This document shows, piece after piece, positions 1,334 through 48,441 of a DNA stretch of 64,000 nucleotides. Made by a program: the position numbers and the translations under genes. The stretch covers positions 1-64,000 of the forward strand of contig NW_024705126.1 in the NCBI RefSeq assembly GCF_018977255.1. The letters are read 5' to 3'. The DNA comes from Callorhinchus milii. Lineage: Eukaryota. Each line of letters begins with the position of its first letter. The stretch's first letter is position 1. The notes beneath the pieces are model-generated. The model saw only the letters and a list, made by a program, of their open reading frames with translations. It was not told the DNA's origin and did no database searches.

Positions 1334-1657
1334 ACCCAATTTTAAGAGTCCAGCCATAAGCTCAATAACAATCTTAATTATGGAGCTTTCGTGACTGCAG
1401 GAATTTCACACTTAAACTGATATTATTGTAACTAGAGTCTAAGCTTTAGTGACTGCAAGAATTACTTTTGGTTTCTTTCGGTAAAGTCACGTAGAAAATA
1501 AAATCAAATAATAATAAAATACGACGTTTCGGTTGCAATACAAGCAACCATCATCGGGTAAGAATCTATATATATAAAATCGTGAATCTGTCTGTCTGTC
1601 TGTGTGTCTGTGTGTCGCCGGACCATACGCACTTTCATTGGACGAAATGTCAGGGAT

Positions 1658-1763
1658 TTGCGACACACGATTGGTCCGGCGGTTGCCCCTGCATTGCGAC
1701 ACACGATTGGTCCGGCGGTTTCCCCTGCATTGCGACACACGATTGGTCCGGCGGTTGCCCCTG
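1658..1763. repeat. 36-bp tandem repeat x3 inside the Helitron
   Basis: Unit ttgcgacacacgattggtccggcggttgcccctgca; it appears as RGNRRTNRVSQC repeats in the ORF track. Confidence 0.9.
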
Positions 1764-2495: not shown

Positions 2496-2619
2496 TAAAG
2501 TTTGTCAATTTGTAACACGTGGCCTTTCGCGACCATTAATCATAAACAACGTTATTGCCTTTCGATCGCCTTATTTATTAATGTGTTGTAACCCTCCACC
2601 ACCCAACACGGCCATTCAG

Positions 2620-3129: not shown

Positions 3130-3435
3130 TTGTCTCTCCTCCGGCCACTGTGGTCTGGCATTCCACACTGCTCCACTCGTTTGTCCGCCTCCGCAGTCCT
3201 CTCTCTGCCGCGGCCCGTCCCCCCGTCTCTCTATTTACGGCCTCGGCACAGAGTCGTTGTCCTTCTGTTTGTCTTGGTGTGTCTTTGTGTGTGTCTCTCT
3301 CTGCCTTTGTTGTTTCCGTGTCTGTGTTTTATCATTAATTCTTACCTGATGACGGTTGCTTGTGTTGCAACAAAAACGTCGTATTCTATTATTATTTGAT
3401 TTTCTACGTGACTTTACCGAAAGAACCAAAGATTA
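3130..3435 (+). mobile_element. Short PLE-derived element, inverted partner of 1466-2945, with a hammerhead motif whose GAAA is mutated
   Basis: CTGATGA at 3346-3352, stem ggttgc/gcaac, AAAA in place of GAAA, then cgtcgta and the shared tail ctacgtgactttaccgaaagaacc. Confidence 0.65.
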
Positions 3436-6035: not shown

Positions 6036-6039
6036 AGTC

Positions 6040-6815: not shown

Positions 6816-6825
6816 ATGTACGCGC

Positions 6826-8097: not shown

Positions 8098-8493
8098 TGC
8101 CCACAAAAAGATTTCCAAAATCATGAGCAAACACAAGATCCAGGTACGATTCAACACAGTACATAACATTCGTGATTTGGTTGACATGATATCACGTGAC
8201 CGGACGATACTGGAAGGGGGCCACTGTTGGACGGGGGCCGTGGGGCGGTCACGTGGTTCCGAGGGGCTCTTGGGAACCTTCGAGAAGGAGCTCGAGAGGC
8301 CTGGAAGGTTGGCGGGTCTAAGGGCGGAGCCAGCCCCAGCCCGGGAGCATATAATGAGGGCTCCGTCAGGAGCTCGAGGTCGCAGGCTTGCGTTGTGGCC
8401 GAAACGTTGTGAGAATTGTATTTTATTATGTTTTATTTTTATCATTTTATTATTCCCCTTCTACGTGACTTTACTGAAAGAACCAAGAAGAAC
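8098..8493 (+). mobile_element. Internally deleted Penelope-like element fragment
   Basis: KKISKIMSKHKIQVRFNTVHNIRDL matches the ORF at 34672. It ends with the 3' half of the hammerhead (gttgtggccGAAAcgtt) and the shared tail. Confidence 0.7.
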
Positions 8494-8499
8494 TAGAAT

Positions 8500-12413: not shown

Positions 12414-12479
12414 TATGTGTGTCGAACTTCTTTCGTACAGTACGTAGTCAACCGTGCTAATCGGAGCTGCGGGGGATAG

Positions 12480-20509: not shown

Positions 20510-20635
20510 ACCCAATTTTAAGAGTCAAGCCATAAGCTCAATAACAGTTAATCATACAACTGCCTTTGCTAGAATGTTAGGTAGAACTGATATTATTGTA
20601 ACTAGAGTCTAAGCTTTCGTGACTGCAAGAATTAC

Positions 20636-20830
20636 TTTTGGTTTCTTTCGGTAAAGTCACGTAGAAAATAAAATCAAATAATAATAGAATACGACGTTTC
20701 GGTTGCAATACAAGCAACCATCATCGGGTAAGAATGAATGATAAAACACAGACACGGAAACAACACAGGCAAACAACATGCAGAGAGAGACATACACAAA
20801 CACAGCAACAACATAGGTAGACACAAATGC
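20636..20830 (-). mobile_element. Short PLE-derived element, uninterrupted paralog of 1466-2945
   Basis: Same degenerate hammerhead and tail; contains the empty Helitron site. Confidence 0.65.
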
Positions 20831-21009
20831 TACTGGGAGGGTCTACTCACAACTCACACTTTACTTCTAATTTAGCAATCTTTGGGAGAACGTTAATCAA
20901 CAAGTCTATGCGTTAACTGTGCGTTAACCAAGCGTCTGTGTTGCATTGCATTACACTTCTTAATTTTACTAAAATTGTTTTCTCAAACTTCGATTTTCTT
21001 GCTCTAAAC

Positions 21010-21317
21010 CATTGTCTCTCCTCCGGCCACTGTGGTCTGGCATTCCACACTGCTCCACTCGTTTGTCCGCCTCCGCAGTCCTCTCTCTGCCGCGGCCCGT
21101 TCCCCCGTCTCTCTATTTACGGCCTCGGCACAGAGTCGTTGTCCTTCTGTTTGTCTTGGTGTGTCTTTGTGTGTGTCTCTCTCTGCCTTTGTTGTTTCCG
21201 TGTCTGTGTTTTATCATTAAATCTTACCTGATGACGGTTGCTTGTGTTGCAACAAAAACGTCGTATTCTATTATTATTTGATTTTCTACGTGACTTTACC
21301 GAAAGAACCAAAGATTA
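21010..21317 (+). mobile_element. Short PLE-derived element, paralog of 3130-3435
   Basis: CTGATGA at 21228-21234 and the shared tail; inverted relative to 20636-20830. Confidence 0.65.
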
Positions 21318-22645
21318 TACTTGTAATTTCATTGGAAAAATACAATTCATATTTGTCGGATAATTATTAAGTTTTCATCGTATATCGTAAAGCTTTTTTA
21401 GATATATTACTGTATTTGTAGATTGCAAATAAATTCGTAAAAAATATTTGCTGACACAGATCTTTATAAAACTGAACAATGAATATTCGACTGTTTTAAC
21501 ATTCTATGCAGCTATAGTTTAGCTGTGTAGACGAGTGGTGAGAACACCACCTAGACTTTGGCGTGTTTTTACTGCTACAGGGAATCGAGAGTTACTCGTA
21601 CTACAAATATGGATGAATTGCGAATTTCTATGTTGAGAAAATGTGATGTACTTGTCGCAGACATTATAGACGTTGATCAGTATGGTCACTTTAGGGTTTA
21701 CCATCTTTTGCATGCTCATCTGGACACACTGTTGGGTAATTATTTTAGGCCGAGGTAACCTAGAAGCAGCACCATACACCTATATCAGCTTAAATGGATC
21801 ATTTCGGTGTTAAAGAATCTCCCCATTTTAAACGTCTGATGTCGCTTACGTATGCTTGCATGTATTGGTAGAATAACGATTGAACAATTATATTAAAAGT
21901 GCCTTTGAAATGAATCGGTCTCACAGTTGTTGAATTTTTTAAAATAAAATAAAAATGCTCAGGGACAAGCATTGGAAATACATTTTCTTCAGCCGGTTAA
22001 ACATGTGTTGTACATTAGAAATGAAGATACGAGGCGCTGTAGATCGATGGCAATTGCAACGTATTTTGAAAAACAATAAATGTAAACAAACCTGTATTTC
22101 ACACTTAGCAGCCCTGCATCGAGCAGCCATTAGTCATGTGGCTGTTGTGAAGAACCAGGTTACTCAAGAGCACCCCCCCAAAAAAATATGCAGTCAACAT
22201 GGAAAGAGGTAATGGATGAGGTCATTGAAAGCCCAAAGTGGAGGTGGGTGAAATATTGATCTGCTTTACATGAGGTATGTATTTTGAACTTCATTCGCAC
22301 CATATGTAGCCAACCGTGCTACTCGGATGTTCGGGAAATGATGCAGGTGATACAGAGCAGATGCAGCTTTGCTTCTTGCAACCCAAACTGGCAGCATTTC
22401 GTGGGTATCTTGTCCAGCAGGGGCTGAATAAGCACGAGTTCAACAACTTTTTCACGGTTCATTGTGCGCATGGGAAATATCTAACAAACTGGACTGAGCT
22501 GATGACGCTCATGCTAGTATCAGGTAAATCTCCTAGCGAAGTCAAACAAAATCTCCAACGATTTTTATTTAATTCAACATCAATTATTATCAACACTAAA
22601 ATTGCTCCTAAATGCTGAAAAAGTGAAAATCATGGTATTTTCCTC

Positions 22646-22894
22646 TTCTTGGTTCTTTCGGTAAAGTCGCGTAGAAGGGAAGTAATAAAATAATAAAAAT
22701 AAAACATGATAAAATAATTCTCACGACGTTTCGGCTACAACGCAAGCAGCCATCTTCAGATGAAGAATGAGACACTACCAAGCTAGGAGCTTATATATAC
22801 CCTGGGTTGGAGGTGCAAGAAGAGCGCCTTAACAAAAAGAATGTGCATATGAAGAGAATTTAACATATCATGGAAAATGCGTAGGAGGTGGGCG
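22646..22894 (-). mobile_element. Short PLE-derived insertion specific to copy B
   Basis: 12-bp TSD ggtattttcctc (22634-22645, 22895-22906); empty site near 4751-4762; shared PLE tail. Confidence 0.85.
22720..22765 (-). ncRNA. Minimal type I hammerhead ribozyme motif with intact core
   Basis: The reverse strand reads tcat-CTGAAGA-t-ggctgc-ttgcgtt-gtagcc-GAAA-c-GTC-gtga, giving stem I tcat/gtga and a 6-bp stem II. Confidence 0.7.
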
Positions 22895-23061
22895 GGTATT
22901 TTCCTCAAACAAAAATCCAGTTTCATTATCTTCACCTATTACTGATATCATAAACAACATAATTGAGTGCTTCATATACTTGGGTTGACTAATTTATTCA
23001 AAACCGACATTCGGACCCCATATTTGTCATCTCAAAAATAATAAAATGGAATTTATGTTGA

Positions 23062-26000: not shown

Positions 26001-26107
26001 GTGCGTCTAAGTCGATGTGTTTCTATGTGTGTGGGTCCATGTCTGTGTGTAAATCCATGTGTGTGTCTGTCTTTTTCGCCCGAGCAACACCGGGTACTTA
26101 CCGCTAG
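23062..26107 (+). mobile_element. Non-autonomous Helitron, paralog of 4917-7696
   Basis: Same termini (CTAG|t ending at 26107). Contains a SINE at 23920-24185, the TG satellite and an RTE fragment at 25158-25970. Confidence 0.72.
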
Positions 26108-26521
26108 TACTTAGATAATGCATTCATCCCACTGTCACATTAAAGAAACCTAATGCGTCCATCTAATTGCCTTTTAACTATCCCAAGACCAAGAATTTCC
26201 GTTGCAGCACCAACGTTTTGGAACAACCTTGTTTTCTCACTTAACATAATAAAGCTTCCATTAAACATATTTTGAAGCAGAAAATTAGTACTAGATTTTG
26301 TCACATTTGCCAATGTCATTTGTAAATTTAATCCTTAACATCACAGCCAGTTATAACCTAAACTGGTTAATGACATCCTTCCAATGATTGCTCAGTTTTT
26401 ACCCATCTTCTCGGTTGAAATTGTCTGTGTTTATATATCTAGATGGCTTCATGAATGAATCTTTGTTGATAGCCAGTGGGTTTGCAGAGTACCTTCGTCT
26501 TGGCAAAATCAATTTCGTGTG

Positions 26522-26917
26522 TGCCCACAAAAAGATTTCCAAAATCATGAGCAAACACAAGATCCAGGTACGATTCAACACAGTACATAACATTCGTGAT
26601 TTGGTTGACATGACATCACGTGACCGGACGATACTGGAAGGGGGCCACTGTTGGACGGGGGTCGTGGAGCGGTCACGTGGTTCTGAGGGGCTCTTGGGAA
26701 CCTTCGAGAAGGAGCTCGAGAGGCCTGGAAGGTTGGCGGGTCTAAGGGCGGAGCCAGCCCCAGCCCGGGAGCATATAATGAGGGCTCCGTGAGGAGCTCG
26801 AGGTCGCAGGCTTGCGTTGTGGCCGAAACGTTGTGAGAATTGTATTTTATTATGTTTTATTTTTATCATTTTATTATTCCCCTTCTACGTGTCTTTACTG
26901 AAAGATCCAAGAAGAAC
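26522..26917 (+). mobile_element. PLE fragment, paralog of 8098-8493
   Basis: Same peptide match and tail. Confidence 0.7.
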
Positions 26918-26919
26918 TA

Positions 26920-27857
26920 GAATGCTCTTCGCTATGTCCAACACCACCATCCAGAGTCCGGCTTTCTAAACGTGAAAAACTTTGTCAACCACAACGACTA
27001 TATCATGTTAAAAAATTAATTTTCAATAGAATATGATTATGCTCCATCAATTTTTGGAAATCTGGATGACAAACGGAACATTTTGAGATTGGCTTCAAGT
27101 TGCTGAATGGTTTTTAGTAGCTGCTCAATCATCATTGTGCTAGAATTTTGATAGCAATCTGCAAATGCTATGTAGTGTTCCAGAATGGTGACAAATTTCA
27201 TTTCTGTGATTGCCATTCTTGTGGAGTAAAGGGAGCACCATCAGTGAACGAACCTGCTTTGTCTTCAAGTGTGATACCATCAATTAACTATTATAGTTTT
27301 GCATGGGAGCAGTTGGTGGAAGCAAGAATGCAGTGTACACTTTGGATTTCATTGCTGTCCAGCCCAAAAATTACATAATTCGAACCCCAATAGTTTACAG
27401 TAGACGTAATGAACAGACGAGCGCTGCCAGAACAGGATCAGCTGTTGATACTTTGCCTGTTAGGACTTCAGTTTTGTTGCCAATCAATGGCCATGAGCCA
27501 AAAGAAGATGCAGTGCTACAAGAAGTTCCTCAAAGTGACGCAACCTTAACGAGATCAAGCACAGCACTACGGATAACATTGTCAATGAGGCACATGAGTT
27601 GAAGGCCGAAGAGTTGTCCTGGTTCTATCGCTTTACAAATGGCCAAAATGGATTGAATGAAAATCGTCTGGTAAATATCAGGCCACTGAACTATTTCCAA
27701 AATCGAATACTTGGCAGGAACCATCGGTTTCAGCACAACAATTACGTCTGCTATGCTCTCTCCATGTATGAGTTCTACAGGGTCAAGTCAAATATTTCGG
27801 TATGCACCAGAAGGATTAATCAATACTGCAATATGCGAGAGGATGTTCTTTTACATG
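26920..27857 (+). mobile_element. Degraded Helitron RepHel N-terminal fragment, paralog of 8500-9433
   Basis: ORF 27599-27904 shows the same motifs. Confidence 0.6.
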
Positions 27858-28785
27858 TGTTGAGGTGTGAAGAACGACGCGAAGGCAAGTTGTGTAGGGG
27901 CTAACGCCAACTGATTATTATGGGTTTACGCCTAACTGTTTATTATGGGCTTACGCCTAACTTGGGGAAAGGGTTAACACAACTGTGTGCTAAGCTAATC
28001 TCCCCAGGGAAAGAGTACTGGGAATTCCCTATGCTCTACCCGGCTTTCAGGCTCTTCCCTCAGCACTGACCGAGGGTTCAGCCAATTCGGCCAGCCGGGT
28101 AAAGTAGCCCCCTAGCCTGGCGCTATTTCTCCCTTACCCTGGGTCCCTACTCCCCCACCCCTCACGATCATGGCTCCCGGTGAAGACCCCTAACATGTCA
28201 CGCATTTGCTTCCTCGTCACCCTACCGGCAGGTCTGGCTGACGTCACTTCCTTTCGTGGCGAGTGTGACATGACGTCACCACTCTACTCCTCAACATCAC
28301 CCCCCGCCCCCCCCCCGGGAAAAAAACCCAGCCAACCCAGCTGCAACTACTCCTTGACCGCCCCTCCCCCTGGCAGGAAGTCACGATGACAACGAACGCA
28401 AGTAACCCCTGAGCGTAGAAGCTTGACCGACCGCTAGAACAAACACGAATACAACATTAAGGTAGGCCGGTACAAGACAATGTCTGGCCATAGACACCAC
28501 CCAGCCCTGCAAGCGGTGGTGACGGTGGGATGGAAGAGGCTGGCTCCACTGTCCGTCAGCGTACGCGCCCGCCCCGCGAGTGCGTGCCCGCCACCGGGCC
28601 GCTTCCACGTGTGGCGTCAGCCGCTGGAGCCGGCGATGCATCATCCCGCCGGCGTAGGGCCACTGCTCCCTGTGGCGTCTGCCTCCGTAACCGGCGGTGT
28701 TCCGGGAGGAGACTGGGCCTCCACGGGGACCTCCTCTGGCAGGCCCGCAGACGGCGGTATTAACGGCGGTAGCTCTGTAGGTATA

Positions 28786-30388
28786 CAGTGAGGGAAAAAA
28801 GTATTTGATCCCCTGCTGATTTTGTACGTTTGCCCACTGACAAAGAAATGATCAGTCTATAATTTTAATGGTAGGTTTATTTGAACAGTGAGATACAGAA
28901 TAACAACAACAAAATCCAGAAAAACGCATGTCAAAAATGTTATAAATTGATTTGCATTTTAATGAGGGAAATAAGTATTTGACCCCCTCTCAATCAGAAA
29001 GATTTCTGGCTCCCAGGTGTCTTTTATATAGGTAACGAGCTGAGATTAGGAGCACACTCTTAAAGGGAGTGCTCCTAATCTCAGCTTGTTACCTGTATAA
29101 AAGACACCTGTTCACAGAAGCAATCAATCAATCAGATTCCAAACTCTCCACCATGGCCAAGACCAAAGAGCTCTCCAAGGATGTCAGGGACAAGATTGTA
29201 GACCTACACAAGGCTGGAATGGGCTACAAGACCATCGCCAAGCAGCTTGGTGAGAAGGTGACAACAGTTGGTGCGATTATTCGCAAATGGAAGAAACACA
29301 AAAGAACTGTCAATCTCCCTCGGCCTGGGGCTCCATGCAAGATCTCACCTCGTGGAGTTGCAATGATCATGAGAACGGTGAGGAATCAGCCCAGAACTAC
29401 ACGGGAGGATCTTGTCAATGATCTCAAGGCAGCTGGGACCATAGTCACCAAGAAAACAGTTGGTAACACACTACGCCGTGAAGGACTGAAATCCTGCAGC
29501 GCCCGCAAGGTCCCCCTGCTCAAGAAAGCACATATACATGCCCGTCTGAAGTTTGCCAATGAACATCTGAATGATTCAGAGGACAACTGGGTGAAAGTGT
29601 TGTGGTCAGATGAGACCAAAATGGAGCTCTTTGGCATCAACTCAACTCGCCGTGTTTGGAGGAGGAATGCTGCCTATGACCCCAAGAACACCATCCCCAC
29701 CGTCAAACATGGAGGTGGAAACATTATGCTTTGGGGGTGTTTTTCTGCTAAGGGGACAGGACAACTTCACCGCATCAAAGGGACGATGGACGGGGCCATG
29801 TACCGTCAAATCTTGGGTGAGAACCTCCTTCCCTCAGCCAGGGCATTGAAAATGGGTCGTGGATGGGTATTCCAGCATGACAATGACCCAAAACACACGG
29901 CCAAGGCAACAAAGGAGTGGCTCAAGAAGAAGCACATTAAGGTCCTGGAGTGGCCTAGCCAGTCTCCAGACCTTAATCCCATAGAAAATCTGTGGAGGGA
30001 GCTGAAGGTTCGAGTTGCCAAACGTCAGCCTCGAAACCTTAATGACTTGGAGAAGATCTGCAAAGAGGAGTGGGACAAAATCCCTCCTGAGATGTGTGCA
30101 AACCTGGTGGCCAACTACAAGAAACGTCTGACCTCTGTGATTGCCAACAAGGGTTTTGCCACCAAGTACTAAGTCATGTTTTGCAGAGGGGTCAAATACT
30201 TATTTCCCTCATTAAAATGCAAATCAATTTATAACATTTTTGACATGCGTTTTTCTGGATTTTGTTGTTGTTATTCTGTCTCTCACTGTTCAAATAAACC
30301 TACCATTAAAATGATAGACTGATAATTTCTTTGTCAGTGGGCAAACGTACAAAATCAGCAGGGGATCAAATACTTTTTTCCCTCACTG
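28786..30388 (+). mobile_element. Full-length Tc1 DD34E transposon copy 2
   Basis: TA TSD, ~200-bp TIRs with inner and outer direct repeats (aagtatttga[t]cccc) and an open transposase ORF. Confidence 0.97.
29153..30172 (+). CDS. Tc1 transposase, 339 aa, open ORF
   Basis: [10 protein letters not shown]... with paired-like HTH domains. Catalytic motifs WSDE, HDND and NPIE with 34 residues between the second D and the E. One Arg codon is missing relative to the other two copies. Confidence 0.9.
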
Positions 30389-32462
30389 TACAGGAGGGCA
30401 AGACAATGGTGACATCCCCGCGACCCCCGAGACCCGGCCCTTCGGACACATCCATCGTCGGCCGTCCCGGAAATGGGGATGAGTCAAGGAAGGCTGGCGG
30501 CGCCATCCGCTTGAGCCATGATGGGTGCACGGTCCAGCGGCGACGGCCCAGCCGGATGTGGACACACTGAGGCCGGCAGACCTCCACCACCTCGACAGGA
30601 CCCTGCTATGGCCAATGTAATTTAGGGAATGTGCCCACCGGCACCTGAGGGAAGTGTAGCCACGCCAACTGGCATGGTAGACCAACAGCCCGGTGTTTGG
30701 GCAAGTGCTTGGCAGCCGCCTGCTGACTGGCTGAATTTTCCAAAAGCTGCTGACCGCGCCTCGCGCAGCCAAGCGAGCGCGACTTACATCGGGAAGGGAA
30801 TGGACGAACCCTTATTAACCAAACCGAGGTCCAGTTGGACGAGCACCGGGGGCTCGGGTTTGCTCCCATACATCAGGTAAAAGGGTGATAATCCTATCGA
30901 GGCATGTGGAGCTAACCTGTACGCGGCCAAAACCCCTGGGATGAACAGGTCCCAGTCCGATTGGGATGTGCTCACGTGATGGCACAACATAGACGTCGCC
31001 CTACTATCCCGTCAGACTTGGGATGGTAGGGTGGGGTGTGGAGTTTCCTCGTCCCAAAGAGGTTACAGACCACCTTGAGCAAACGGGAAGAAAAATTCCG
31101 CCCTTGATCAGTTAAGAGCTGTTCTGGTGCCCCCTTATCGAGAACATACTCCTGTACAAATGCCTCCGTGATGGACATGGCCGATTGGTCCACCATAGGC
31201 CAATGTGTGAATGGTCCCAAAATATCGAGCGCCACGAGCTCATTCACATGAGAAACCGGATGGACTGCAGCGGGGCCCGATCCTGACCAACTTGTACCTT
31301 CCTCCGCGCACAGTCGTGGCAACCCTTCAAAATCAGCGCCACATCATCCTCCATGCCCGGCCAATAGTAGTTCCATTTAAGGGTCAACAAGGTCTTGTGG
31401 TATCCGAGGTGCATACGTTTCTCGTGAATGGCTCTGGTCAACTTACCTCGCAAGCCAATGGGCACCACCACACAATATCGCTCCAACTGAGTATCCCAAC
31501 GCATGAGGAGGCCGTTATGCACGGCAATTTCCGGGCAGCTGACGGAGCCGAGCTCCGGGCCTTAGACCCAACACGGCGTCGCAGCCTCAGCAGAGAGGAA
31601 TCCTCCATCTGCATCTGGGACCATACCTCCCGGGGGAGTCCCAGGCCAAAATCCACAGGCAACGCCACACCCGGAGAGGGCGCCGCTTCGGCCGATGCGA
31701 CCAACTGGGCCACGGAGTCCACTCGGCCTTACAGCGGCTGGAACCCAGGGTACAGGCGCACTCGCCCTCCGGGGGCCACCTGGAAAGGCCATCCGCATTC
31801 CCATGCAGAGTACCCTTCCTGTGGATGACGTGGAAGGGGTACTCCTGGAGCACCTCGAGCCAGTGGGACAGCTGACCCGAGGCTGGTCAATTTGAAGGGA
31901 ATATTGCAGAGCTGCATGGTCGGTCCGGACGGTGAACCGGTGACCATGCAGATATGGCCTGTACAATTGGACAAAGAAAACAATGGCCAGCAGCTCTCTC
32001 CTGGTCACACAGTACCGCTGCTCAGTGGGGGACAAACGCAGCTACCATAGGCCACCACCTGCTCCACCCCGTCGACGACCTGAGCCAGGACAGCCCCAAT
32101 GCCCGTGTCACTGGCATCAGTGTCGTGGAGGAATGGCCAAGAGAAATCCGGGTACCCAAGGGCGGCACGTCCGCCAAGGCCGCACGAAGTGCCACAAAAG
32201 CGGCGGCCTCCTTTCCCCAGCGAAATTTCTGACCTTTGGCAAGAGAGTGGTCGCAAAATTGCGGACGAGCCGGCGATAATACGATGCAAAGCCCACAAAA
32301 CTATGCACCTCAGCGACAGATGTAGGAGTCGGCCACGTCCGGACACAAGCAGTCTTTTCTGGATCTGTGGCCACACCTGACGTGCTAACAATGTGGCTCA
32401 AATACTTTATCAATGGTTGCAGTAGATGGAATTTCTGTGGTTTAAATCGTGAGGGGCATGGC

Positions 32463-32803
32463 TGTAGGCGGGGCTTGATGACGTAGTCCAGGGGATATAA
32501 GGAGAAGCGGAAGAGAGCTCGGGAGCAGTGTGCGGAGTCCGACAGCAGGACCACGTCGTGCGCCTCCGGAATGCCAGCAGCCACGTGGCGGGCCGGAGGC
32601 TTCCGCCCAGCGAGCCGCCTATCAGCGGCGTGCGGCAGAGGCTGTGAGAGATTTGGCGCGAGCGAACACCGAACCGCGCGGGAAGGGGAGTGCAGCCATG
32701 CAGCCATGTTGGAGAGAGAGAGCAGAGCTGTCCATCTTTGAAAGAGTAATAAACGAATAAGAAGACACAAGTCCAGATCATCATTGCAGTGGTTTATTTC
32801 ACA
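32463..32803 (+). mobile_element. Solo-LTR-like insert in the old Gypsy RT
   Basis: TG...CA ends, gatataag and aataaa; no TSD, and it coincides with deletion of the RT core. Confidence 0.55.
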
Positions 32804-33709
32804 TGCGAGGCAATGGATATGCATCGGCCACCAAATCTTGTTTAACTTACGGAAGTCGACGCAGAAGCGGAGACTCCCGCCCCCCAAGGGCTAGTGGACA
32901 TGATCCTTTTCCGCTGGGCTAAAGCCTCTCCAAGGCCAGGGAGTTGAGCGCACCTCCTTCCATGTCAGGATACGCGGCCTGAGCCAATGCCAGGAGGGAG
33001 CAGCGGAAAGCGAAAGGCGATTCCCCCTCCTCCCGCCGGCGTATGGTAAACTTAAGGCGCACCGCGGATGGTGGCTCGAATACCTCGGCCATCTGATGAT
33101 AGGCCGACTGCAGCATCGCCTTGTCCTCCGGTGGGATGCTCAAAAACGCTTGCAACGTGCTAGCATCCAAGCATATGGGCAGCGCATGCAGCGCCTCCTC
33201 CACCGGCCAGCGCACCGACTGATAGGCCGCATCAAACCGGGCCTGGAAATCCAGCCAGTCGTCCCCCTTCACGATAAACGGCGTGACAGGGGGCAGCCGG
33301 TGCAGCCGCAAGTGAGCCGACCCATCCCCTGGCCCGGACTCACCCATAGTGGCAGCCGCAGCCACCACGCCTTAACGCGGAGCCCCAGCAGCCCTGGAAA
33401 CCCACGGGGACGTGGCTCCCCGATCCGCGTCCGTGGCCGCTGCAACCCCCGCCACCCCTGCTTGCAGCGAACTCACAGCGACATTGGCGGCGACGTGCGG
33501 TGTCATGGCGGCGACTTGTGGCGTCGCATAAACAATGGCGCCCGACTCCGGCGATGCAGGGAAAATGGCGACCGCCAGCGGCGTCGCAGAAAAAATGGTG
33601 CCCCCCTGCTCCGGTGCAGCCGTTGGCGAAATGGCGCCAATTTGAAGTTTGGTGGGAGACGAGGCGTCGGAAAAATCGTGATGGTCGTCCACCCCATCAC
33701 ACGCCCCGT

Positions 33710-34150
33710 GTGCAAAAGGACAAGTTGGTGAACCCTCGAATGTTCACAGGCGTATACCTCAAAAGCCTGAGATTACAGTGGAAGGACATCGAGTTAATGT
33801 TCATGACTAAATAACCATGGTACCGTACAAAATGCTCAGCATGATTGATCAGAGGCTGAAACAGCTTAAGGGTAACCCTAAGCTCGACATCCTCCTGTTT
33901 GGTGATCTCATGCAGCTTCCTCTCGTGCATGGCAGCGCAATGTTCGATCAGCAGGAAATGATGCCACCAGAAACCTATTTGTGGCAGAAGTTCTCTTTTG
34001 TGAGCTAACTCAGAACATGCGCCAACAAGGAGACACGTTTATTGAATTGCTGAATGATTTGAGGATCGGCCAGATCAAAAGTGAGCAGATCAATCTTTTT
34101 CTTGAAAGAATTGGAGGACAACGGCTTGGGATAATTTACCCTTGAAAAGC
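33710..34150 (+). mobile_element. PIF1-like helicase remnant of a Helitron RepHel
   Basis: MVPYKMLSMIDQRLKQLK...ILLFGDLMQLP and ELTQNMRQQGD.FIELLNDLRIG across shifted frames. Confidence 0.75.
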
Positions 34151-34559: not shown

Positions 34560-35690
34560 ACCCGCTCCGACAGGAAATCTGTGAAACGGATACTCTGACC
34601 GCACCATCCGCCAAGCTGTTTCTCCCACCATACAGAAACAGCCACTTGAAACTCCGATCAAAACTATCACGTTGCCATACATAGCAGGCGTGACCAAAAA
34701 GATCTCCAAAATTCTAAACAAACATAAGATCCAAGTCCGATTCAGTACAGTACATAAAATGCGTGATCTAATTCCATCTGTGAAGGATGTCATCCCTGAC
34801 TTGCAATACCCTGGAGTCTATAAACTGAGTTGCAGCTGTGGTGATTGTTACATTGGGGAAACGAAACGTCATGTCTCTGATCGTGTCCGCGAGCACAAGT
34901 CAGATTTGAAAGACGGCAAAATTGAGTCTTCCGCCGTTGCGGATCATTGCTACAACGCGGTGGGCTCTCATGATATTGTTTTTTCCGAGACCAAGGTGCT
35001 CTGCAAACCCTCTGGCTACCATCAATGGTTTGTACACGAAGCCATTCAGATATACAAATACAGACATAATTCAACCGTGTTGATGGGTACAAACTTAGTA
35101 ATGATTGGAAAGATGTTATTAACCATGCAAAAAAGATTTAACTACACATTTTTGGACCATCTTATCTGACAGGCACTATTTTACTTTACCGAGTGTTAAC
35201 ATCCCCAGCGTTAAACAGTACTCTCTTTATTGTCAGCCAACACTGGTATAAACAACATGGGCATTTTCGTTCTCTTCTATCATGTGCACCAACAGGTGCT
35301 TGTGCACAGGCATGTCCACGTACACCTTGTGCTCTCTTTTAGCCCCCCCCCCCTTCCAATACGTTATCATGCGCACCAACAGGCACTTGCGCACAAACAC
35401 GTCTACGTCTACGTGCACCTCGTGCTCTCTTTTAGCCCCGCCCCCTCCCTCCGATACGTTCCATTCATTGGCTACCACATTCTGATAAGCTCCCCCTCTC
35501 CTCCCCCTTAACTGGTATTTAAGAACTTACATCTTGGAATCCCTGCCTCACTTGATACAGCAAATCTGGCTGTGACGGTCCCACCTGATGACGGAGACTT
35601 GTGTTGCCTCCGAAACGTCGTGATTTTTTATTTTTTTATGAATTTTAATTTCATTTTTTACCTACGTGACGTTACCGAAAAAACTAAGAG
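34560..35690 (+). mobile_element. 5'-truncated Penelope-like element: GIY-YIG endonuclease region plus 3' repeat
   Basis: ORF 34672-35169 reads LPYIAGV...GVYKLSCSCGDCYIGETKR...REH...SAVADH. It is followed by a ~90-bp tandem duplication, a hammerhead motif and the shared tail. Confidence 0.88.
35581..35623 (+). ncRNA. Minimal type I hammerhead ribozyme motif with intact core
   Basis: cac-CTGATGA-c-ggagac-ttgtgtt-gcctcc-GAAA-c-GTC-gtg; predicted cleavage after GUC at 35619. Confidence 0.7.
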
Positions 35691-36224
35691 TGTGAAAAAG
35701 AGCTTTATAGCTCATCAGATTCCTCCAGTAGAAATAAATAAATATTCTGATTACGGCACGTTGACTGATTTGCTGGTGCGTGACCAAGCACTGGAAGTGT
35801 CCGAGAGACGTACGGATATATTTGTGAAAGCAAAACCCTAAAAGTGTGCAAGTCTGTGCTTAGCGACGCTTGGGGGGCTCATGATCGTACCTATGGCATA
35901 GGGAGACGAGACAGAAGACTGACCAGGTGATACATCTAGCAGAGGAATTGGACGAGGAGATGACATTCGCAGTACATCACAATCGATGCTCACTTTTGCT
36001 TAGATTTGTCAAATATGGTAAGATCAGGCCCATTCTAGGTGACTGATATTTTAGTCTACTCTAACCAGTGTGGCGAAATATTTCATTTTTACTATTTTAT
36101 TTACCAGGTAAGGCCCACTGAGCAATACTGTATAGATATTTTTCAGAAGCGACCTGGCTATCACAAAGTATTCCTATTCAAAATTGTTTTTTGGAAATGT
36201 AGAGCAGCCAAATGCTCTAAACGC

Positions 36225-36691: not shown

Positions 36692-37004
36692 GCCTTTGAC
36701 GAAATCACCCAGAATGCATCCAAGATGGTCACATCTTGGAAGCTAAGCAATGTTGATCCTGGATAGTGCTTGTATGGGTGACCACCGCACACAAATCAGG
36801 TGATATAGGCTTATGTGGGACTACGTTGACTGCATAGCATAGTGCAGCAAATAAACGGTTGTACAGTCCTCTGCTCCAACGCCTGAACTCCCTGCCTTCC
36901 CGCAACCTGTGCTGACCAGCTGGTCAATGCGGTCAAATAACTCGACTTGACTTGCAAGGTGTGAGGAGACCCTCATCCAGCGGTGGAATGACAAAAGCGG
37001 TTGA
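36692..37004 (+). mobile_element. 5S rRNA-derived SINE-like element
   Basis: 36692-36812 aligns end to end with 5S rRNA (gcct...atcttggaagctaagca...cctggatagtgcttgtatgggtgacc...caggtgatataggctt). A ~190-bp body follows, with tail ccctcatccagcggtggaatg. Confidence 0.7.
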
Positions 37005-38566: not shown

Positions 38567-38752
38567 CTCTAGAGGGTATTTGTTCTACTCTTCCACTCTG
38601 ACCAGACCTATTGGAACAGGTAGTGGTACTCACCCTTTGCCCCAACATACGCAACCTGTAAGTATTATAATAAATTGATTATAAATTTCATTTAAAACAA
38701 TCCCCTCCTTCTGTGCCTCTCTTCGAACACCAGTTGTTGATCAGCGTCGGCA

Positions 38753-39730
38753 ATGGAGAAAAATAGCTCGGCGTTCTACCTCTCCACGTTCGAAGCCTCG
38801 TACTCCGTGCAGATGGTCATCTTTGGCCTCTGCCTGCCGCTCTATGCGGCCACAGTTGTAGCCAACCTGCTGGTCTTCTTGGCGGTGCTCATGTGCCCCG
38901 AGCTGCACAAGCCCATGTACTTGTTCCTGGGAAACATGGCGATGGCCGACATCGTCGGCTGTACAAGCATCGTGCCCAAGCAGCTGCAAATCCTGCTGAC
39001 GGGCGACGGCGAAATCCTGCGCGAGTCTTGCCTCATGCAGATGTTTTGCCTTCACGTGTTCTGTAACGTCGAGGTGCTGACGCTATCGGTCATGGCTTTT
39101 GACCGTTATGTGGCCATCTGTCACCCGCTGCGCTACCACACCATCATCACAGCCAAGAAGACGCTCGGTGTGCTGATGCTGATGTGGATGGTCACCTCGG
39201 CGGTTTTTGGGGCCCTCACATTCCTCGCCGCCCAGCTAAAATTCGGCAATAATCGGAAAATCCAAGGAATTCTGTGCGATAACATGGGAATGATTTTGTT
39301 GGCTGAATCGGACACCAATATTAGTTATGTATACGGCTCGATAATCATGCTGATCTTTTTTATCTTACCACTTGTTTTCATAAGCTACAGCTACTTAAAG
39401 ATATTTATTGAGTGTCGCATTAAACGATCTACTGAGATTACCAAGCACGGTTTGAACACTTTGCTGACACACTTCTTGGCGCTGTCGATGTTTTTCTTCG
39501 CGATTTTTGTTTCCGCCTTAACGCCTCGTTTCATCAAAGATTTCAACACCCCCGCTCTGCGAAACATGAGGTGCCTTTTCCAGTTCGGTGCGTTTATTGT
39601 GCCGATGGCGAATGTGCTGATCTACTGTATACGCACCAAACAGCTAAGGAAAGGAATGAGGATGTGTTGTAAAAATGCATTCTTTGGTACACTTTTTCCA
39701 ACATTTTCAAAAGTCTCAAATGTAAGTTAA
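38753..39730 (+). CDS. Olfactory receptor OR3, intact 325 aa
   Basis: Single-exon ORF with seven hydrophobic segments and motifs LHKPMYLFL, MAFDRYVAICHPLRY, LLTHF and NVLIYCIRTKQLR; N-glycosylation sequon NSS near the N-terminus. Confidence 0.95.
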   Translation: MEKNSSAFYLSTFEASYSVQMVIFGLCLPLYAATVVANLLVFLAVLMCPELHKPMYLFLGNMAMADIVGCTSIVPKQLQILLTGDGEILRESCLMQMFCLHVFCNVEVLTLSVMAFDRYVAICHPLRYHTIITAKKTLGVLMLMWMVTSAVFGALTFLAAQLKFGNNRKIQGILCDNMGMILLAESDTNISYVYGSIIMLIFFILPLVFISYSYLKIFIECRIKRSTEITKHGLNTLLTHFLALSMFFFAIFVSALTPRFIKDFNTPALRNMRCLFQFGAFIVPMANVLIYCIRTKQLRKGMRMCCKNAFFGTLFPTFSKVSNVS

Positions 39731-42700
39731 ATTCAGTTTTCAAGAGAAACCGACCGTAGGACACCATACATATGAACTGGAGAACTTCCACTGTTCGAAT
39801 GTTATTTAGCAAGCTACTGTAATCATGTATCCTTAAGCTTACATTTTAATGAAAAAATACACGAGTGGCAAGTTATACGAAAGCTCATCTCTTACCCTCC
39901 ATGCCCCACCTCCACCAACTTACACTGGCGAGAATGGCCAAGTCTGGTCAAAAGATCCAATGATCGACAGTGTGGGAAGGCTTTCATTCACTGATTTATT
40001 GAGAATGCTTGGAATGATGTTAACACAAATATCACGCACATGTCCTTTGCAATACTTACGTAAGGAACCACTGCTTAAGTGTAATATTCGAGTGCGATGT
40101 GTAACCGTGGATTATGGTGTTGAGTTAAACAATACCCTATGAAGGCTGATACATTTAATGTAAATGTGTTCAATTGTTTAAAAAAAATGTTTTTTAGTTT
40201 GCTTAGTTTTGAGCTGCATTTGTTGACAATTGTTTTTGAGTACAGGCAGAGCTCGCCGGACGTTACGTTCTTGGAAAATGCCGTGTTGGGCAAAATGCGT
40301 TCGACAAATAATAGACGTTACGGGGAAAATCGAGTTGTGTTCCTTGGTTATAAATGATCACTCCCTCATTGTTTAATTAATGCTCCGATATTTGCCTCCC
40401 TTGTTATAATAGTAAAGGATGCTGAGTCGCTCTCCATGTCTTTTGTGTGTGTGTACACTTTATTTTATAATTCCACCTCGACATAAAACCACCGTCTCCA
40501 TTCATCTTCCTGCACCGCGGCACTCACGCCCGATGCTCGCCCCTGACACTCACTTGTTCACGGTTCGCCCTCTGGGCATACATATGACTCGTGTCAGCAA
40601 CTGGACGGTTTGGTGCAAGCGGCAACGCGGGGACATTTGCGTTGTGCATTTATCCGGGAGCGTGTTGATTCGCCATCGAGGCGTCCGTCTGACTGACGAC
40701 CTTAACGAGTGGACAGCGAGATTAAGGCGGCAAAATGTGTGTGGACATTTGCGTTGTGCCAGTTGTGCATTTTGTGTTTAGATTATCACGCGAAAAAACA
40801 TACAACCGCCATTCGCCACTAAGTGGCGGTCACGTCACCATGGCGCTTGTGCCAGACTAGATGCACTTTAAGGCCACGTGAAAGTGTTGAACGCCCGCTG
40901 GCAGGTCACAGGACAAACCCTGGTGCTATGGGTTGACAGATGACTGGCCGGTGCGCCATCTTTGTTTTATATGCCCGGCGCTCCGCTCGTTGTTGTGAGC
41001 ATCATTCTCCTGCCCTCCGTTGCTGGAGGGCGTCTGCCTACGAACTGTCCAGTTGTGTCCTTCACGAGCCTCCTCCACAGAGGCGATCTTGACACCAGTC
41101 GTACCAGTCATTGGTAAGTCGTCCGCTCAATTTTCTCTTGTACCACATAATTCCATCTCTTCTTTAACCTGTGCCGCGCCCGTTTAGCCCTCTCTATCTG
41201 GACAAACAATAGCTGTTTGGGCATGCAGTGGCTTGGCATGCATTCTATGTGAGCCAGCCAACACAGCCTTGCCTGTTGGAGAAGCTTACCGATGGGACTC
41301 CAGATATTTCTAGGATTTGTGCGCTCCTGACAATCCAGCCTGGTTAAACCGATGATGGATCAAAGCAGGCCAGCCTGAATGTATACACACACACACACAA
41401 GCATGGTAAATAAATCACAGTCGATTCATTCACACCTATTGGATGCAACACTCTTACTGTTCGACGTAGAGATGAGAATCCGAGCAGAGTTTGAACGGCA
41501 TATACAGTGAGGGGAAAAAATATTTTATCCCCTGCTGATTTTGTACGTTTGCCCACTGACAAAGAAATGATCAGTCTATAATTTTAATGGTAGCTTTGTT
41601 TGAACAGTGAGAGACAGAATAACAACAACAAAATCCAGAAAACGCATGTCAAAAATATTATAAAATGGTTTGCATTTTAATGAGGGAAATAAGTATTTAA
41701 CCCCCTCTCAATCAGAAAGATTTCTGGCTCCCAGGTGTCTTTTATATAGGTAACGAGCTGAGATTAGGAGTACACTCTTAAAGGGAGTGCTCCTAATCTC
41801 AGCTTGTTACCTGTATAAAAGACACCTGTTCACAGAAGCAATCGGATTCCAAACTTTCCACCATGGCCAAGACCAAAGAGCTCTCCAAGGATGTCAGGGA
41901 CAAGATTGTAGACCTACACAAGGCTGGAATGGGCTACAAGACCATCGCCAAGCAGCTTGGTGAGAAGGTGACAACAGTCGGTGTGATTATTCGCAAATGG
42001 AAGAAACACAAAAGAACTGTCAATCTCCATCGGCCTGGGGCTCCATGCAAGATCTCACCTCGTAGAGTTGCAATGATCATGAAAACGGTGAGGAATCAGC
42101 CCAGAACTACACGGGAGGATCTTGTCAATGATGTCAAGGCAGCTGGGACCATAGTCACCAAGAAAACAGTTGGTAACACACTACGCCGTGAAGGACTGAA
42201 ATCCTGCAGCGCCCGCAAGGTCCCCCTGCTCAAGAAAGCACATATTCATGCCCGTCTGAAGTTTGCCAATGAACATCTGAATGATTCAGAGTGTAGTAGG
42301 TTCAATGAGACTTGGACGACGTAGTCGGAGGCACACTTATTTATTAAACGTTTCACTCAATACAGGCCAAGGTATACAACACTCGAAGGGGTATCGGCCC
42401 CTTCACCCATCTAACAGGGAGATCCCACTATCTCTATCCCGGCTAGCCTACTCCCAGGTCCTCCACTACAGAGCTAGGGGAGGCTAGCTGATCCAGCTCT
42501 GGCCAAGCTAGGATCACGGCACCCTTAGTCACCAGACCGGCTCTTACAAGAGCATCGGCTCTGGGCTCTCGGGCCACGCCACTGGCTTGCCCTGGTCGGT
42601 CCTTAGAAGGACAGCGATCCAGGGGAGTCCCAGGGCCTATCTAGCCGGTCTTCCTTCTTCACTGGTTTAAGCTAAACACTGAACCCCGAGCCCACCGGCT

Positions 42701-43365
42701 CACCGCCTTATATAGCAACTCCCCCCCCGAGGGGTGGGGCCGTGGGGGATCACAGCGCCGTTTCAGCCCCCCAGGCTAAACGATGCGGACGTGGATGTAA
42801 GCATCCTTCCGCGTGCGGGCATAACCACCCCTGGTGTGTTTGTTCGCCCTCCCGTAACACCTCTACATCACCCCCCCCCCTGTACAGCCCGCAGCCGTCC
42901 CGGCTGCAACAAAATTCACAATAAAGATGCATCCCCCCAAACCCGTGTGTGCCTCGCGTAACTAACATCAACAACAACAACAAATAACAACAACACTACG
43001 AGAGAGAAAAAATAACCCGACGCACCCCCCCCAATAAATACCCCATCCCGTAAGAAACCAACATATGTACAATTTCAAGGTCCCCCACCCCGCGACCCCA
43101 GCAAGGGCTGCACGAGCGGCCGACCTCACAAAAGTCTGCGCGTTTTGGCGCGCGTTCTTGCAGCGGGACCATCACAAGGGGCAGCCCCGGTGGGTGTCAA
43201 TAGTTCGGGTGCGAGAGTGTCTGGCTTCGCCGACGAGCGACCCCCGACCCCCCGGGAGGGGTTGGCGGTCGCGAGCACGTCAATCCTGGTGCACCTGGAA
43301 GCGGAACAGTCGGTGGCAAGTCAGGCGAATGCAGCGAAGTCGGACTCCGGAAGTCGGTGGACCCC

Positions 43366-46300
43366 TCACATGTTTGGCCATGCGTGTGTGTGGAGAGGAA
43401 CATGGGGCGCAACGAACGGTTTCAACCGCGAGGGGTGCACGAACCACCGACGCTTCCCCCACCGGATACGTACACATTGTGGCCGCAAGACCTGCACCAC
43501 TTCCACGGGCCCCCGCCACGGCCGCAACAGCTTGGACGAGGTCGCCAGCGGAACTTGGGGACAGTGCAACCACGCCTTGTCACCCGGTTTCCACTGGAGC
43601 ACATGTACCCGGCCCAGCTTGAGCCTTTCATTCGCCCTCTGGCGGAGGTCTGAATTTTGGATGGCCGCCTCCCGCGCCTCTGTCAATTTAGAGATGTTGA
43701 ATTTGACATGGTCGGCCAATTTGGATTTAGCATGCGGCGCGGAGATCCGCAGCTGAGTCGCGACAGGCGGGTTAGCCTCGCGACCGTACATTAGGAAGAA
43801 GGGCGAAAATCCGGTCGCCGCATGAGGAGCCATTCTGTAGGCCGCCAAAACCCCCGGAATATGAAGGTCCCAGTCGGTCTGGGATTCAGACACCTGTTGA
43901 GACAGCATGGACGTGATAGTCCGATGCAGACGCTCCACCATCCCGTCAGTTTGCGGATGATATGGGGAGGTACGGATTTTTTTCGTACCCAGGAGCTCGC
44001 ACACCTCGTGGAGAAGTTTACCCGAGAAATTTTTCCCCTGGTCGGTCAGCAGCCGCTCCGGAGTACCTTTGTCGAGGACGTAGCCCTGGACAAAGGCCTC
44101 CGCGATGGCTGCTGCCGACTGGTTGGCGAGGGGCCAGGCCATAGGCCATCGCGTAAAATATTCCACCCCGGTCAATAGGTATTTATTTCCCCTAGGTGTA
44201 GCGGGGAATGGGCCCAAAATATCAAGCGCGACGAGTTCGTTAACCCGGGAAACCTTGATAGACTGCAATGGTGGGTTGGACCCCTTGCTGGTGGCTTCCG
44301 TTGCGCGCACTGAGTACAAGACCCTAAAGATCATCCACGTCCCTTGCCATGCCCGGCCAAGAAAAATCCAGCTGGAGCATGGCAAGGGTTTTGTGAGTCC
44401 CCAGGTGCAGGAGTCGCTCGTGAGCAGCCCACACCACTCTACCCCTCAGTGTGGAAGGCACCACCAGCCGGTGGCGGCGGGATCTCCCGTCCCAATGCAT
44501 CAAGAGACCCTGGAACAACCCCCACGAGTCGACATTTTCCACCCCCCGACCAGATCCCCCGATGCGACGGCGCAACGCGAGGAGGGAGGTGTCCTCCATT
44601 TGGAGGCGCCCCCACTCCGCAACAGACAATCCCAGCAAGGAATCCCTCCCTTCTTGCTCAATAGGACCCGCAATTGAAGGCGCATCAGCGGCGGCCGCAA
44701 GGACCGAATCAGAGATTACATTCGGAGGTCTGCAACGCCCCGAACCCAGGAGGCAAGCGCACTCGGAGGTGGGCGGCAAACGCGACAGAGCGTCTGCGTT
44801 CGTGTGGCGAACGCCCTTACGATATGTAGTCTCGAAATCGAAATCTTGGAGAATCTCCAACCATCGGGACAATTGTCCCGATGGCTGTTGAACCCGCAAG
44901 GCGTACTGCAGCGCCGCATGATCTGTGCGGACGGTGAAATGGCGACCGTACAGATATGGGCGATATTGCTGAATGAAGTAAACGATTGCCAATAGTTCCC
45001 GACGGGTGACACAGTACCTCTGCTCCGCCGGAGACAAAACCCGACTGCCGTATGCTACCACATGCTCTACGCCCCCAACAACCTGGGAAAGCACGCCCCC
45101 AATGCCCGTGTTGCTTGCGTCCGTATCGAGCAAGAAGGGTTTCGAAAAGTCGGGATAACTTAATGGCGGAGCCCCCACTAGGGCGTCCCGGAGGGAGCGA
45201 AAAGCAGCCTCCTCCTCCTGCCCCAGTGAAACTTGACCCCCTTTGATGTCAAGGCATGTAAGGGTTTAGCAATCGTCGCGAAATCGGCGACAAACCGTCG
45301 GTAATACGACGCGAATCCAATAAAACTCCTGACCTCCCCCACCGAGGTGGGAGTCGGCCAGGAGCTGACACATTGCGTTTTGGCGGGATCTGTGGCAATA
45401 CCTGACCGTCCGACAATGTGGCCCAAATACCGCACCGATTCGCGGAGCAAATGACATTTCTGCGGCTTGAATTTCAAATTAGCAGCCCGCATTTTGAGGA
45501 AAACAGCCCGCAACCTCTGGAGGTGTTCGTCGAATGTTTTACTAAAGACGATGATATCGTCTAAGTAAATCAAACAAGAATCCCATTGCAACCCAGCCAG
45601 GACCAATTCCATTAATCGCTGGAAAGTTGCCGGCGCTGAGTGGAGCCCCATCGGCAAGCGGTTAAATTGGAATAGGCCGTGCGGCGTACGGAAAGCTGTT
45701 TTGGTTTAGATTCATCATCCAGAGGGAGCTGCCAGAACCCTGACAGTAAATCCAATGTGGAGAAGAACCGGCCCCCGCCAGGGCGTCAAGCGATTCATCC
45801 ATCCGAGGGAGCGGATATGCGTCGGCTACGGAGATCTTGTTTAGCCGACGAAAATCAACACAAAACCGCAAGGAGCCGTCGTGTTTTTTAACTAACACGA
45901 TGGGTGCACCCCAAGGGCTGGTAGAAGGGGATATAATATCCGCAGCTAGCATGTCGTCTACGGCCGATTTGACATGATCCTTTTCGGCGGGACTCAACCG
46001 AAAAGGATTTTGGCGGATTGGCGCGCTGTCACCCGTGTCAATATGGTGTCGCAGCAGTTTAGTACAGCCAATATCATATTTGTGTCGACTAAAAACGTCG
46101 GAAAAATCGCGCAGAAGGGTTCGTAGCTTATCACGCTGTGAGTCGGACAGGTCCGATGATCCCGCACAAAGCGCATCCAGCCACCCCTCATCACGGTCCG
46201 AATGCGGTTGCGACGGAGGAGCGGTGCTCACTGTCCAATGACCGGTTCCTCACAGGGTACCGGCGTTGCGTGCGCAAGCACGGTCCCTTGAGGAACCACA

Positions 46301-48416: not shown

Positions 48417-48426
48417 CTTTAGAAGA

Positions 48427-48441
48427 CCACTTCTGACTCCA
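48427..48441 (-). promoter_or_regulatory. Primer-binding site, tRNA-Leu-like
   Basis: Minus-strand tggagtcagaagtgg just inside the 5' LTR; one mismatch to the complement of a tRNA-Leu 3' end (tggtgtcagaagtgg). Confidence 0.65.

What the first reader, a model, noticed from the sequence alone, without database searches (positions are those of the whole stretch)
35581..35690. Family of minimal hammerhead ribozymes with covarying stems, tied to a GIY-YIG Penelope-like element
Seen: the motif CTGANGA-stem II-GAAA-c-GTC recurs at 35585(+), ~22720-22765(-), 3346(+), 21228(+), ~1520-1560(-) and ~20690-20730(-), with half copies near 8400 and 26825. Stem II covaries (ggagac/gcctcc, ggctgc/gtagcc, ggttgc/gcaacc) and stem I covaries (cac/gtg, cat/gtg, tac/gta). 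All are followed by an AT spacer and a conserved tail ctacgtgac(t/g)ttaccgaaa. Established: PLEs carry minimal type I hammerheads with a palindromic, very short stem III thought to cleave as dimers. Inference: at least three subfamilies populate this OR cluster, and the conserved tail may be the RT/endonuclease recognition signal.
Basis: partly seen in the sequence, partly recalled or inferred. Interest (0 to 1): 0.7.

Follow-up and report, generated by a model that had tools for sequence, protein, structure and literature searches.

The report
Lamprey Poseidon retroelement ends with hammerheads
These motifs are real but mostly known: they are end pieces of a lamprey Penelope-type jumping gene carrying a small hammerhead motif printed in 2014, and the "conserved tail" beside it is likely half of the hairpin where copying of the element's RNA would start, once from each cut DNA strand.

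Summary
The motif is real, but the eight sites are four insertions: a segmental duplication and one inverted pair inflate the count, and only two keep a canonical core. They are 3' ends of Poseidon-type Penelope-like elements. Full-length tandem copies (788-aa RT plus GIY-YIG-type ORF) exist in G000, with 4,238 exact tail matches. The window is lamprey DNA (OR 93%, element 92% identical to lamprey proteins), and this hammerhead is printed for sea lamprey in PMC4209133, so the family is known.

It is the 5' arm and loop of a 7-bp hairpin around the ATG. The hairpin is homologous to the RT-initiation region of anole Poseidon and shows compensatory changes.

Copy ends fall at two sites about 34 nt apart. 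All 47 inverted insertions with a target duplication, plus 8 of 8 in a divergent family, have one short and one long end. This favours priming from both cut strands. The one-sided tail is in print, and this scan has noted the rule on other DNA. Ribozyme cleavage is untested.

The parts
34585..35690 (+). 5'-truncated family-B Poseidon-type PLE copy with a short (tail-less) 3' end just before the ATG
   Evidence: 92-94% identical to longer copies L062/L066/L072 over the coding part; candidate 7-bp duplication TGTGAAA at 34580-34586 and 35691-35697
34585..35126 (+). C-terminal ORF fragment with GIY-YIG-type endonuclease motifs (GVY...YIGETKR, CxC, two His); frame broken near its end
   Evidence: no Pfam GIY-YIG hit for this fragment
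35582..35622 (+). Minimal type I hammerhead motif, canonical core, predicted cut after C35619
   Evidence: same architecture and loop as the Petromyzon row of PMC4209133 supplement
35623..35661 (+). T-rich spacer of variable length between the hammerhead and the hairpin
35665..35690 (+).
22645..22894 (-). 250-bp family-A-like end piece with canonical hammerhead (22722-22762) and short 3' end; 11-bp target duplication at 22634-22644 and 22895-22905
   Evidence: empty site in the duplicated segment at 4751-4761
1433..1563 (-). Long-ended (tail-bearing) arm of a family-C inverted insertion, hammerhead with U4C; carries both hairpin arms
3339..3433 (+). Short-ended arm of the same family-C insertion, hammerhead core broken (G12 lost)
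20603..20733 (-). Duplicate of the long-ended family-C arm
21221..21314 (+). Duplicate of the short-ended family-C arm; flanks match 9 of 12 bases, possibly a decayed target duplication (by eye; the script found none)
8386..8491 (+). Family-A end piece truncated inside stem II (half hammerhead), short 3' end, next to rearranged endonuclease fragments at 7918-8181
26810..26915 (+). Duplicate of the 8386-8491 half copy
2510..2619 (-).
   Evidence: blastn hit 2560-2619; rest by eye

Best explanation
These are 5'-truncated 3' ends of lamprey Poseidon-type Penelope-like retrotransposons, whose end repeat carries a known minimal hammerhead motif and, about 55 nt further on, a hairpin that likely positions the element's RT-endonuclease on its RNA. 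Inferred mechanism: a protein dimer binds the hairpin of a tandem transcript and nicks both strands of AT-rich DNA about 12-13 nt apart. One 3' end would prime inside the loop (about +1 from the ATG) and the other just 3' of the hairpin (about +35), probably on the same RNA. Both cDNAs run 5'-ward across a mostly uncut hammerhead. If both are captured, they join head-to-head, giving one tail-less and one tailed arm inside a target duplication; if one is captured, a simple stub results. The hammerhead is likely slow, dependent on a partner copy or on protein, and not needed for insertion. Shown here: anatomy, end positions, pairing rule, covariation. Inferred: protein binding, nicking, priming and cleavage.
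For: Full-length head-to-tail arrays with units of 2,993-2,996 bp and a 788-aa ORF; RVT_1 E 8.4e-12; 44% identity over 792 aa to an Anolis carolinensis protein whose N-terminus matches the PAc RNA printed in PMC11167929. Of 266 distinct 3' junctions, 134 end at or before +10, 118 at +29 to +46, 3 between, and 11 run on into the ORF. Median spacing is 34 nt. Inverted pairs with a duplication of 9 bp or more: 47 of 47 short+long, 9 of 9 in loci fetched after the rule was noted; mismatched ends gave such a duplication in 1 of 300. Family E (49% protein identity): 8 of 8 distinct pairs with a duplication. The two arms of one insertion are identical over 28 nt in 10 of 25 family-A pairs against 9.7% across pairs, permutation p 5e-5. 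A is enriched 2-3 nt outside the duplication (53% and 62% of 92 pooled ends), as expected for symmetric nicking. Hairpin arms are CGTGACT/AGTCACG (A-D), CGCGATC/GGTCGCG (E) and CAUGGCC/GGCCAUG (PAc, by eye), each followed by AAAGC. PAc starts RT 11-18 nt behind the 3' arm; long ends here lie about 15-17 nt behind it. PAc extends both strands and does not need its hammerhead in vitro.
Against: No biochemistry on this element. Of 26 inverted neighbours without a duplication, 17 are short+long, 4 short+short, 4 long+long and 1 runs into the ORF; these may be unrelated neighbours, but that was not shown. PMC11167929 saw no strand difference in start site and did not link the two strands of one molecule. 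The hairpin is weak: z-scores 0.11, -0.41 and 0.27, and it is the minimum-energy fold in 3 of 6 longer contexts. Its covariation rests on three lineages only. Shared variants between arms could also come from one source locus or from later gene conversion. Family-E loci were ranked by a score that favours long ends.
Confidence: 0.7

Rival explanations
1. One priming event followed by fold-back of the cDNA, or an antisense hairpin intermediate resolved by staggered endonuclease cuts about 34 nt apart, makes the inverted arm and the one-sided tail.
For: Proposed in print: self-priming (PMC3846280 passages) and EN-mediated resolution (PMC8557442 passages). It also predicts short+long ends and shared variants between arms.
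Against: Fold-back of a cDNA primed at the long site needs the long-ended arm to reach at least as far 5' as the short-ended one. Among 33 of 47 pairs that could be resolved, the short-ended arm was longer in 20, the long-ended in 7, and 6 were ties. A fixed stagger on one hairpin predicts one direction only. PAc initiates at both sites on RNA in vitro.
Confidence: 0.17
2. [quoted passage not shown]
For: Conserved core and covarying stems across families (91.5% of cells paired, 5 of 9 pairs changed on both sides, 0 of 500 shuffles reach the score). Palindromic ACGU and tandem arrays 3 kb apart. 12 of 97 family-A 5' ends lie 0-9 nt upstream of the cut.
Against: Only 1 of 97 family-A copies begins exactly at the cut and 2 of 73 family-B copies within 9 nt. 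118 of 170 cross it by 10 nt or more. The monomer at 35585 folds with its core paired to the cleavage site. Dimers cleaved poorly in PMC4209133, and PAc needed protein. Family E carries U4C in 20 of 20 readable copies, a variant reported to lower activity.
Confidence: 0.1
3. The short palindromes are a non-autonomous element amplified as a unit from a few masters, so the pairing rule is inherited, not repeated.
For: Many are 150-400 bp and look like MITEs.
Against: Lengths run from 92 to 2,141 bp, with different internal junctions and different duplications, in five families.
Confidence: 0.03

Closest known systems
Minimal hammerheads (min-HHR) of metazoan PLEs, Petromyzon marinus Poseidon row (Cervera and De la Pena 2014, PMC4209133; parts 1-2 of 4 of the text and passages of supplement file 2 seen; file 1 not searchable)
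   Same: Same core, extra nucleotide after A9, 6-bp stem II with loop UUGUGUU, no stem III loop, C-GUC-GUGA end, T-rich flank, tied to Poseidon.
   Different: More stem II variants here (74 in 268 motifs), and a family with U4C throughout, which was not found in the searchable supplement.
Poseidon of Anolis carolinensis (PAc), Frangieh et al. 2024, PMC11167929 (parts 1-2 of 4 and passages seen; supplement figures not seen)
   Same: RT plus C-terminal GIY-YIG-type domain (44% identity), tandem arrays, two end points with a 30-40 nt tail between them, AC-rich stem-loop region, AT-rich targets.
   Different: The lamprey ORF most likely starts at the short end point, 80 nt after the cut, whereas PAc starts at stem II. 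The passages seen do not report a one-site-per-strand rule or the 7-bp covarying stem.
Inverted-pLTR insertion unit with one-sided tail (Arkhipova 2013, PMC3846280; Craig 2021, PMC8557442; Schostak 2008, PMC2377424; passages seen)
   Same: [quoted passage not shown]
   Different: Here the rule is counted (47 of 47 and 8 of 8), and arm lengths argue against simple fold-back.

Membership tests
EN+ Penelope-like element, Penelope/Poseidon type | Single ORF with RT and C-terminal GIY-YIG endonuclease | tested here: met
   788-aa ORF, RVT_1 E 8.4e-12; GVY...YIG motifs. Pfam gave no GIY-YIG hit on this protein; relatives P0050 (PF01541) and P0078 (named GIY-YIG) carry one.
EN+ Penelope-like element, Penelope/Poseidon type | Tandem or partial-tandem layout forming pLTRs, 5' truncation, inverted copies | tested here: met
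EN+ Penelope-like element, Penelope/Poseidon type | Optional 30-40 bp tail and target-site duplication | tested here: met
   median 34 nt, duplication mode 12-13 bp; empty site in the window
EN+ Penelope-like element, Penelope/Poseidon type | RT phylogeny within Penelope/Poseidon rather than Neptune | tested here: inconclusive
   No tree built; full-length 44% match to the Anolis protein and the Poseidon label of the lamprey row point to Poseidon.
Minimal type I hammerhead (min-HHR) | CUGANGA and GAAA core, extra base before G10.1, G10.1-C11.1, palindromic 15.2-16.2, short stem I | tested here: met
   met by 2 of 8 window sites in full, broken or variant in 6
Minimal type I hammerhead (min-HHR) | Compensatory changes in stems I and II | tested here: met
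   26 variants: 5 of 9 pairs changed on both sides, score 0.552 against 0.234 shuffled; relatedness not corrected, R-scape not run
Minimal type I hammerhead (min-HHR) | Self-cleavage (as dimer or with protein) | not testable with these tools
   No assay; 5' ends of copies give no clear pile-up at the cut
Rfam hammerhead families | Covariance-model match | tested here: not met
   No hammerhead family among 8 matches at E up to 1 in the window
Non-LTR retrozyme | Short tandem repeats each with a type I hammerhead, no ORF | tested here: not met
   Copies are dispersed stubs, inverted pairs or 3-kb ORF-bearing tandems; definition from bioRxiv 10.64898/2026.07.22.740005 part 1

The most novel reading that the evidence does not exclude
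Poseidon integrates by ordered double priming: an RT-endonuclease dimer bound to one conserved hairpin primes both cut target strands on the same RNA, one inside the loop and one behind the stem. That single step explains the inverted pLTR, the one-sided 34-nt tail and the 12-13 bp duplication. The hairpin is kept by compensatory change from lamprey to lizard, and intact 788-aa lamprey copies make the model testable.
Probability: 0.55. Interest if true: 0.55.

Novelty: already known. Interest (0 to 1): 0.3.

Why it matters
The ribozyme family is not news. The value lies in the insertion record: how Penelope-like elements, relatives of telomerase, make their inverted repeats and one-sided tail is described as open in PMC8557442 and PMC11167929. 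A counted one-short-one-long rule, a named covarying hairpin and intact ORFs turn that into a direct experiment. The window also shows lamprey-type DNA among the small contigs of G000, which matters to anyone reading genes or horizontal transfer from this assembly.

Tried and rejected
Rfam gave no hammerhead hit. The metagenome scan found no relative. The PDB sequence search found no PLE structure; best E was 0.018. A single-sequence fold of the endonuclease was useless (pLDDT 38), and the Atlas gave no answer.

Expression: no RNA holder was listed, and expression, splicing and RNA ends remain untested.

A switch in which the hairpin's 3' arm pairs with the cleavage site was rejected: it was not the favoured partner in any of 6 folds (the row labelled D there is an A-type copy). 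A loop II pseudoknot was looked for by eye only; there was no convincing partner, and loop II varies too little to test. The T-rich spacer as an intron is unlikely by eye (no pyrimidine tract next to an AG) and untested.

A looser motif-based classifier called 2 of the 47 pairs long+long. Inspection showed flank sequence mimicking the arm, and the alignment-based class was used. The alignment used several wrong coordinates and is not relied on. Horizontal transfer of the element into the G000 host is not needed, since the neighbouring OR gene is itself lamprey-type.

Lunse 2017 and Pyatkov 2004 were not held; dimer cleavage is cited through the review PMC6765202 (passages). Searches for a printed one-site-per-strand rule found none in the held library, which lacks most subscription papers, including Arkhipova 2006. 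A search for lamprey + Penelope + hammerhead found 0 papers, yet the motif is in a supplement, so such blanks are weak.

Full report
Observation. The motif at 35582-35622 is as described, with the predicted cut after C35619. The downstream 19-mer occurs 8 times against 0.01 expected, whereas the bare core is at chance level (4 against 3.08). The count is inflated. Window 1-10848 is duplicated at 19169-29266, and the copies at 1520(-) and 3346(+) are two arms of one head-to-head insertion. That leaves four events. Two sites have a canonical core, two have U4C, two have lost G12 and two are half copies. Rfam does not detect them.

The element. The 35585 copy ends a 1.1-kb 5'-truncated piece that begins inside an endonuclease domain. 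In G000 the 19-mer has 4,238 exact matches and a 35-place hammerhead pattern 2,572, with 0 for the reversed controls. Head-to-tail arrays of 2,993-2,996 bp carry a 788-aa ORF with an RT domain (E 8.4e-12) and C-terminal GIY-YIG-type motifs. Pfam gave no GIY-YIG hit on this protein itself. It is 92% identical to a Petromyzon marinus protein over 524 aa and 44% to an Anolis protein over 792 aa. The N-terminus of the Anolis protein matches the PAc RNA printed in PMC11167929 (by eye).

Host. The intact OR at 38741-39730 is 93% identical to a Lethenteron and 89% to a Petromyzon receptor, so the window is lamprey DNA. Among the places listed (only the first 100 are shown in 23 and 42), matches lie in small contigs and three islands of C5 and C14. 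CpG observed/expected is 0.85 in the window, 0.72 on average in 36 small-contig stretches, and 0.33-0.54 in 5 stretches from the middle of large scaffolds, which had no tail motif. One island stretch (L160) had 3 motifs at 0.39, which does not fit. Foreign contigs in the assembly are the likely reading.

The hammerhead is known. The PMC4209133 supplement lists a Petromyzon min-HHR tied to a partial Poseidon with the same core, loop and ends; earlier scan notes pointed me to it. Covariation holds on 26 variants seen at least twice (of 74 variants, 268 motifs, overlapping loci not removed): 91.5% of cells paired, 5 of 9 pairs changed on both sides, score 0.552 against 0.234 shuffled. The shuffles ignore relatedness. 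A divergent family E has U4C in 20 of 20 readable copies; U4C is a known, less active natural variant (PMC3088659 passage). Activity is not shown. 118 of 170 copies extend 10 nt or more across the cut, and 1 of 97 family-A copies starts exactly at it, with 12 within 9 nt. This agrees with PAc, where uncut RNA is the main template and cleavage needs protein.

The 'tail'. In full-length copies the motif lies in the 5' UTR and pairs with sequence just inside the ORF, forming a 7-bp stem with a 32-nt loop that contains the ATG. The arms are CGTGACT/AGTCACG in families A-D, CGCGATC/GGTCGCG in family E and CAUGGCC/GGCCAUG in PAc, each followed by AAAGC. The stem is thermodynamically weak, so the case rests on these compensatory changes and on position. 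Of 266 distinct 3' junctions, 134 end at or before +10 from the ATG, 118 at +29 to +46, 3 between, and 11 continue into the ORF. The two sites are a median 34 nt apart, which is the known PLE tail and matches the two PAc start sites. The 250-bp insertion at 22645-22894 has an empty site in the duplicate and fixes a short end with an 11-bp duplication.

The pairing rule. Of 73 distinct head-to-head neighbours, 47 have a duplication of 9 bp or more (mode 12-13; 1 of 300 in mismatched controls), and all 47 have one short and one long end, including 9 of 9 in loci fetched after the rule was noted. The 26 without a duplication are 17 mixed, 4 short+short, 4 long+long and 1 read-through. Family E repeats it: 13 rows, 11 distinct pairs, 8 of 8 with a duplication mixed; of the 3 without, 2 mixed and 1 long+long. 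Unpaired ends are 31 short and 21 long among 138 junctions in the 10-kb loci. Arms of one insertion share variants (10 of 25 identical against 9.7%, p 5e-5). The short-ended arm reaches further 5' in 20 of 33 resolved pairs, the long-ended in 7, which a single fold-back of a long-primed cDNA cannot produce. A is enriched just outside both ends of the duplication.

Mechanism and comparison. The simplest reading is double target-primed reverse transcription: both nicked strands prime on the element's RNA, one at each site flanking the hairpin's 3' arm. Each enzymatic step is inferred from anatomy and from the PAc results. [quoted passage not shown] I found no printed one-site-per-strand rule in four searches of the held library. 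I noted the rule, before reading earlier scan notes, several of which report it in other genomes; those notes are not independent support.

Verdict. A correct catch of a known motif in a known element, over-counted and with the tail misread. The follow-up adds a covarying hairpin and a strict end rule that make an open step of PLE insertion testable. Interest 0.3.

Noticed in passing
whole window; G000 small contigs; islands near C5:67.99-68.05 Mb, C14:13.55-13.57 Mb and C14:17.37-17.42 Mb: Window genes are lamprey-type (OR 93%, PLE 92%) and CpG-rich, unlike sampled large scaffolds; lamprey DNA appears to be filed in an assembly of another vertebrate, partly inside scaffolds near N gaps.
   Followed up: partly
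window 1565-2850: Helitron-like insert (5' TC, 3' hairpin plus CTAG, between A and T; hallmarks recalled), absent from the duplicate at 20734; it carries a family-E PLE stub.
   Followed up: partly
window 1-10848 and 19169-29266: Segmental duplication, 89-97% identical, containing an OR gene and the PLE stubs.
   Followed up: yes
window 270-1333, 19464-20524, 38741-39730: Three related olfactory receptor genes; the third has an open 325-aa frame (7tm_4 E 7.7e-36), the first is split over two frames.
   Followed up: partly
window 29036-30172, with copies near 10365-12416 and 41500-49830: Tc1/mariner elements, one with an open 378-aa frame; the Rfam mir-7558 matches (below gathering score) are a palindrome inside them.
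   Followed up: no
window about 30400-33700 and 42870-48440: GC-rich LTR-retrotransposon-like stretches with protease, RT and integrase-like ORFs (by eye, not scanned); the second interrupts a Tc1 copy and is flanked by a 578-bp direct repeat.
   Followed up: no
window 36692-36811: Weak 5S rRNA match (34 bits, gathering 38), possibly a 5S-derived repeat.
   Followed up: no
L163 (G000:C745), L148, L076: Divergent Poseidon family E with an open 783-aa ORF and a U4C hammerhead in all readable copies; a related family keeps U4.
   Followed up: partly
L063, L007, L021, L093: Some 3' ends abut the element's own T-rich spacer, suggesting insertion into earlier copies; not counted.
   Followed up: no
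window 33780-34140: Broken reading frames resembling a PIF1-type helicase (motifs recalled, no scan result).
   Followed up: no
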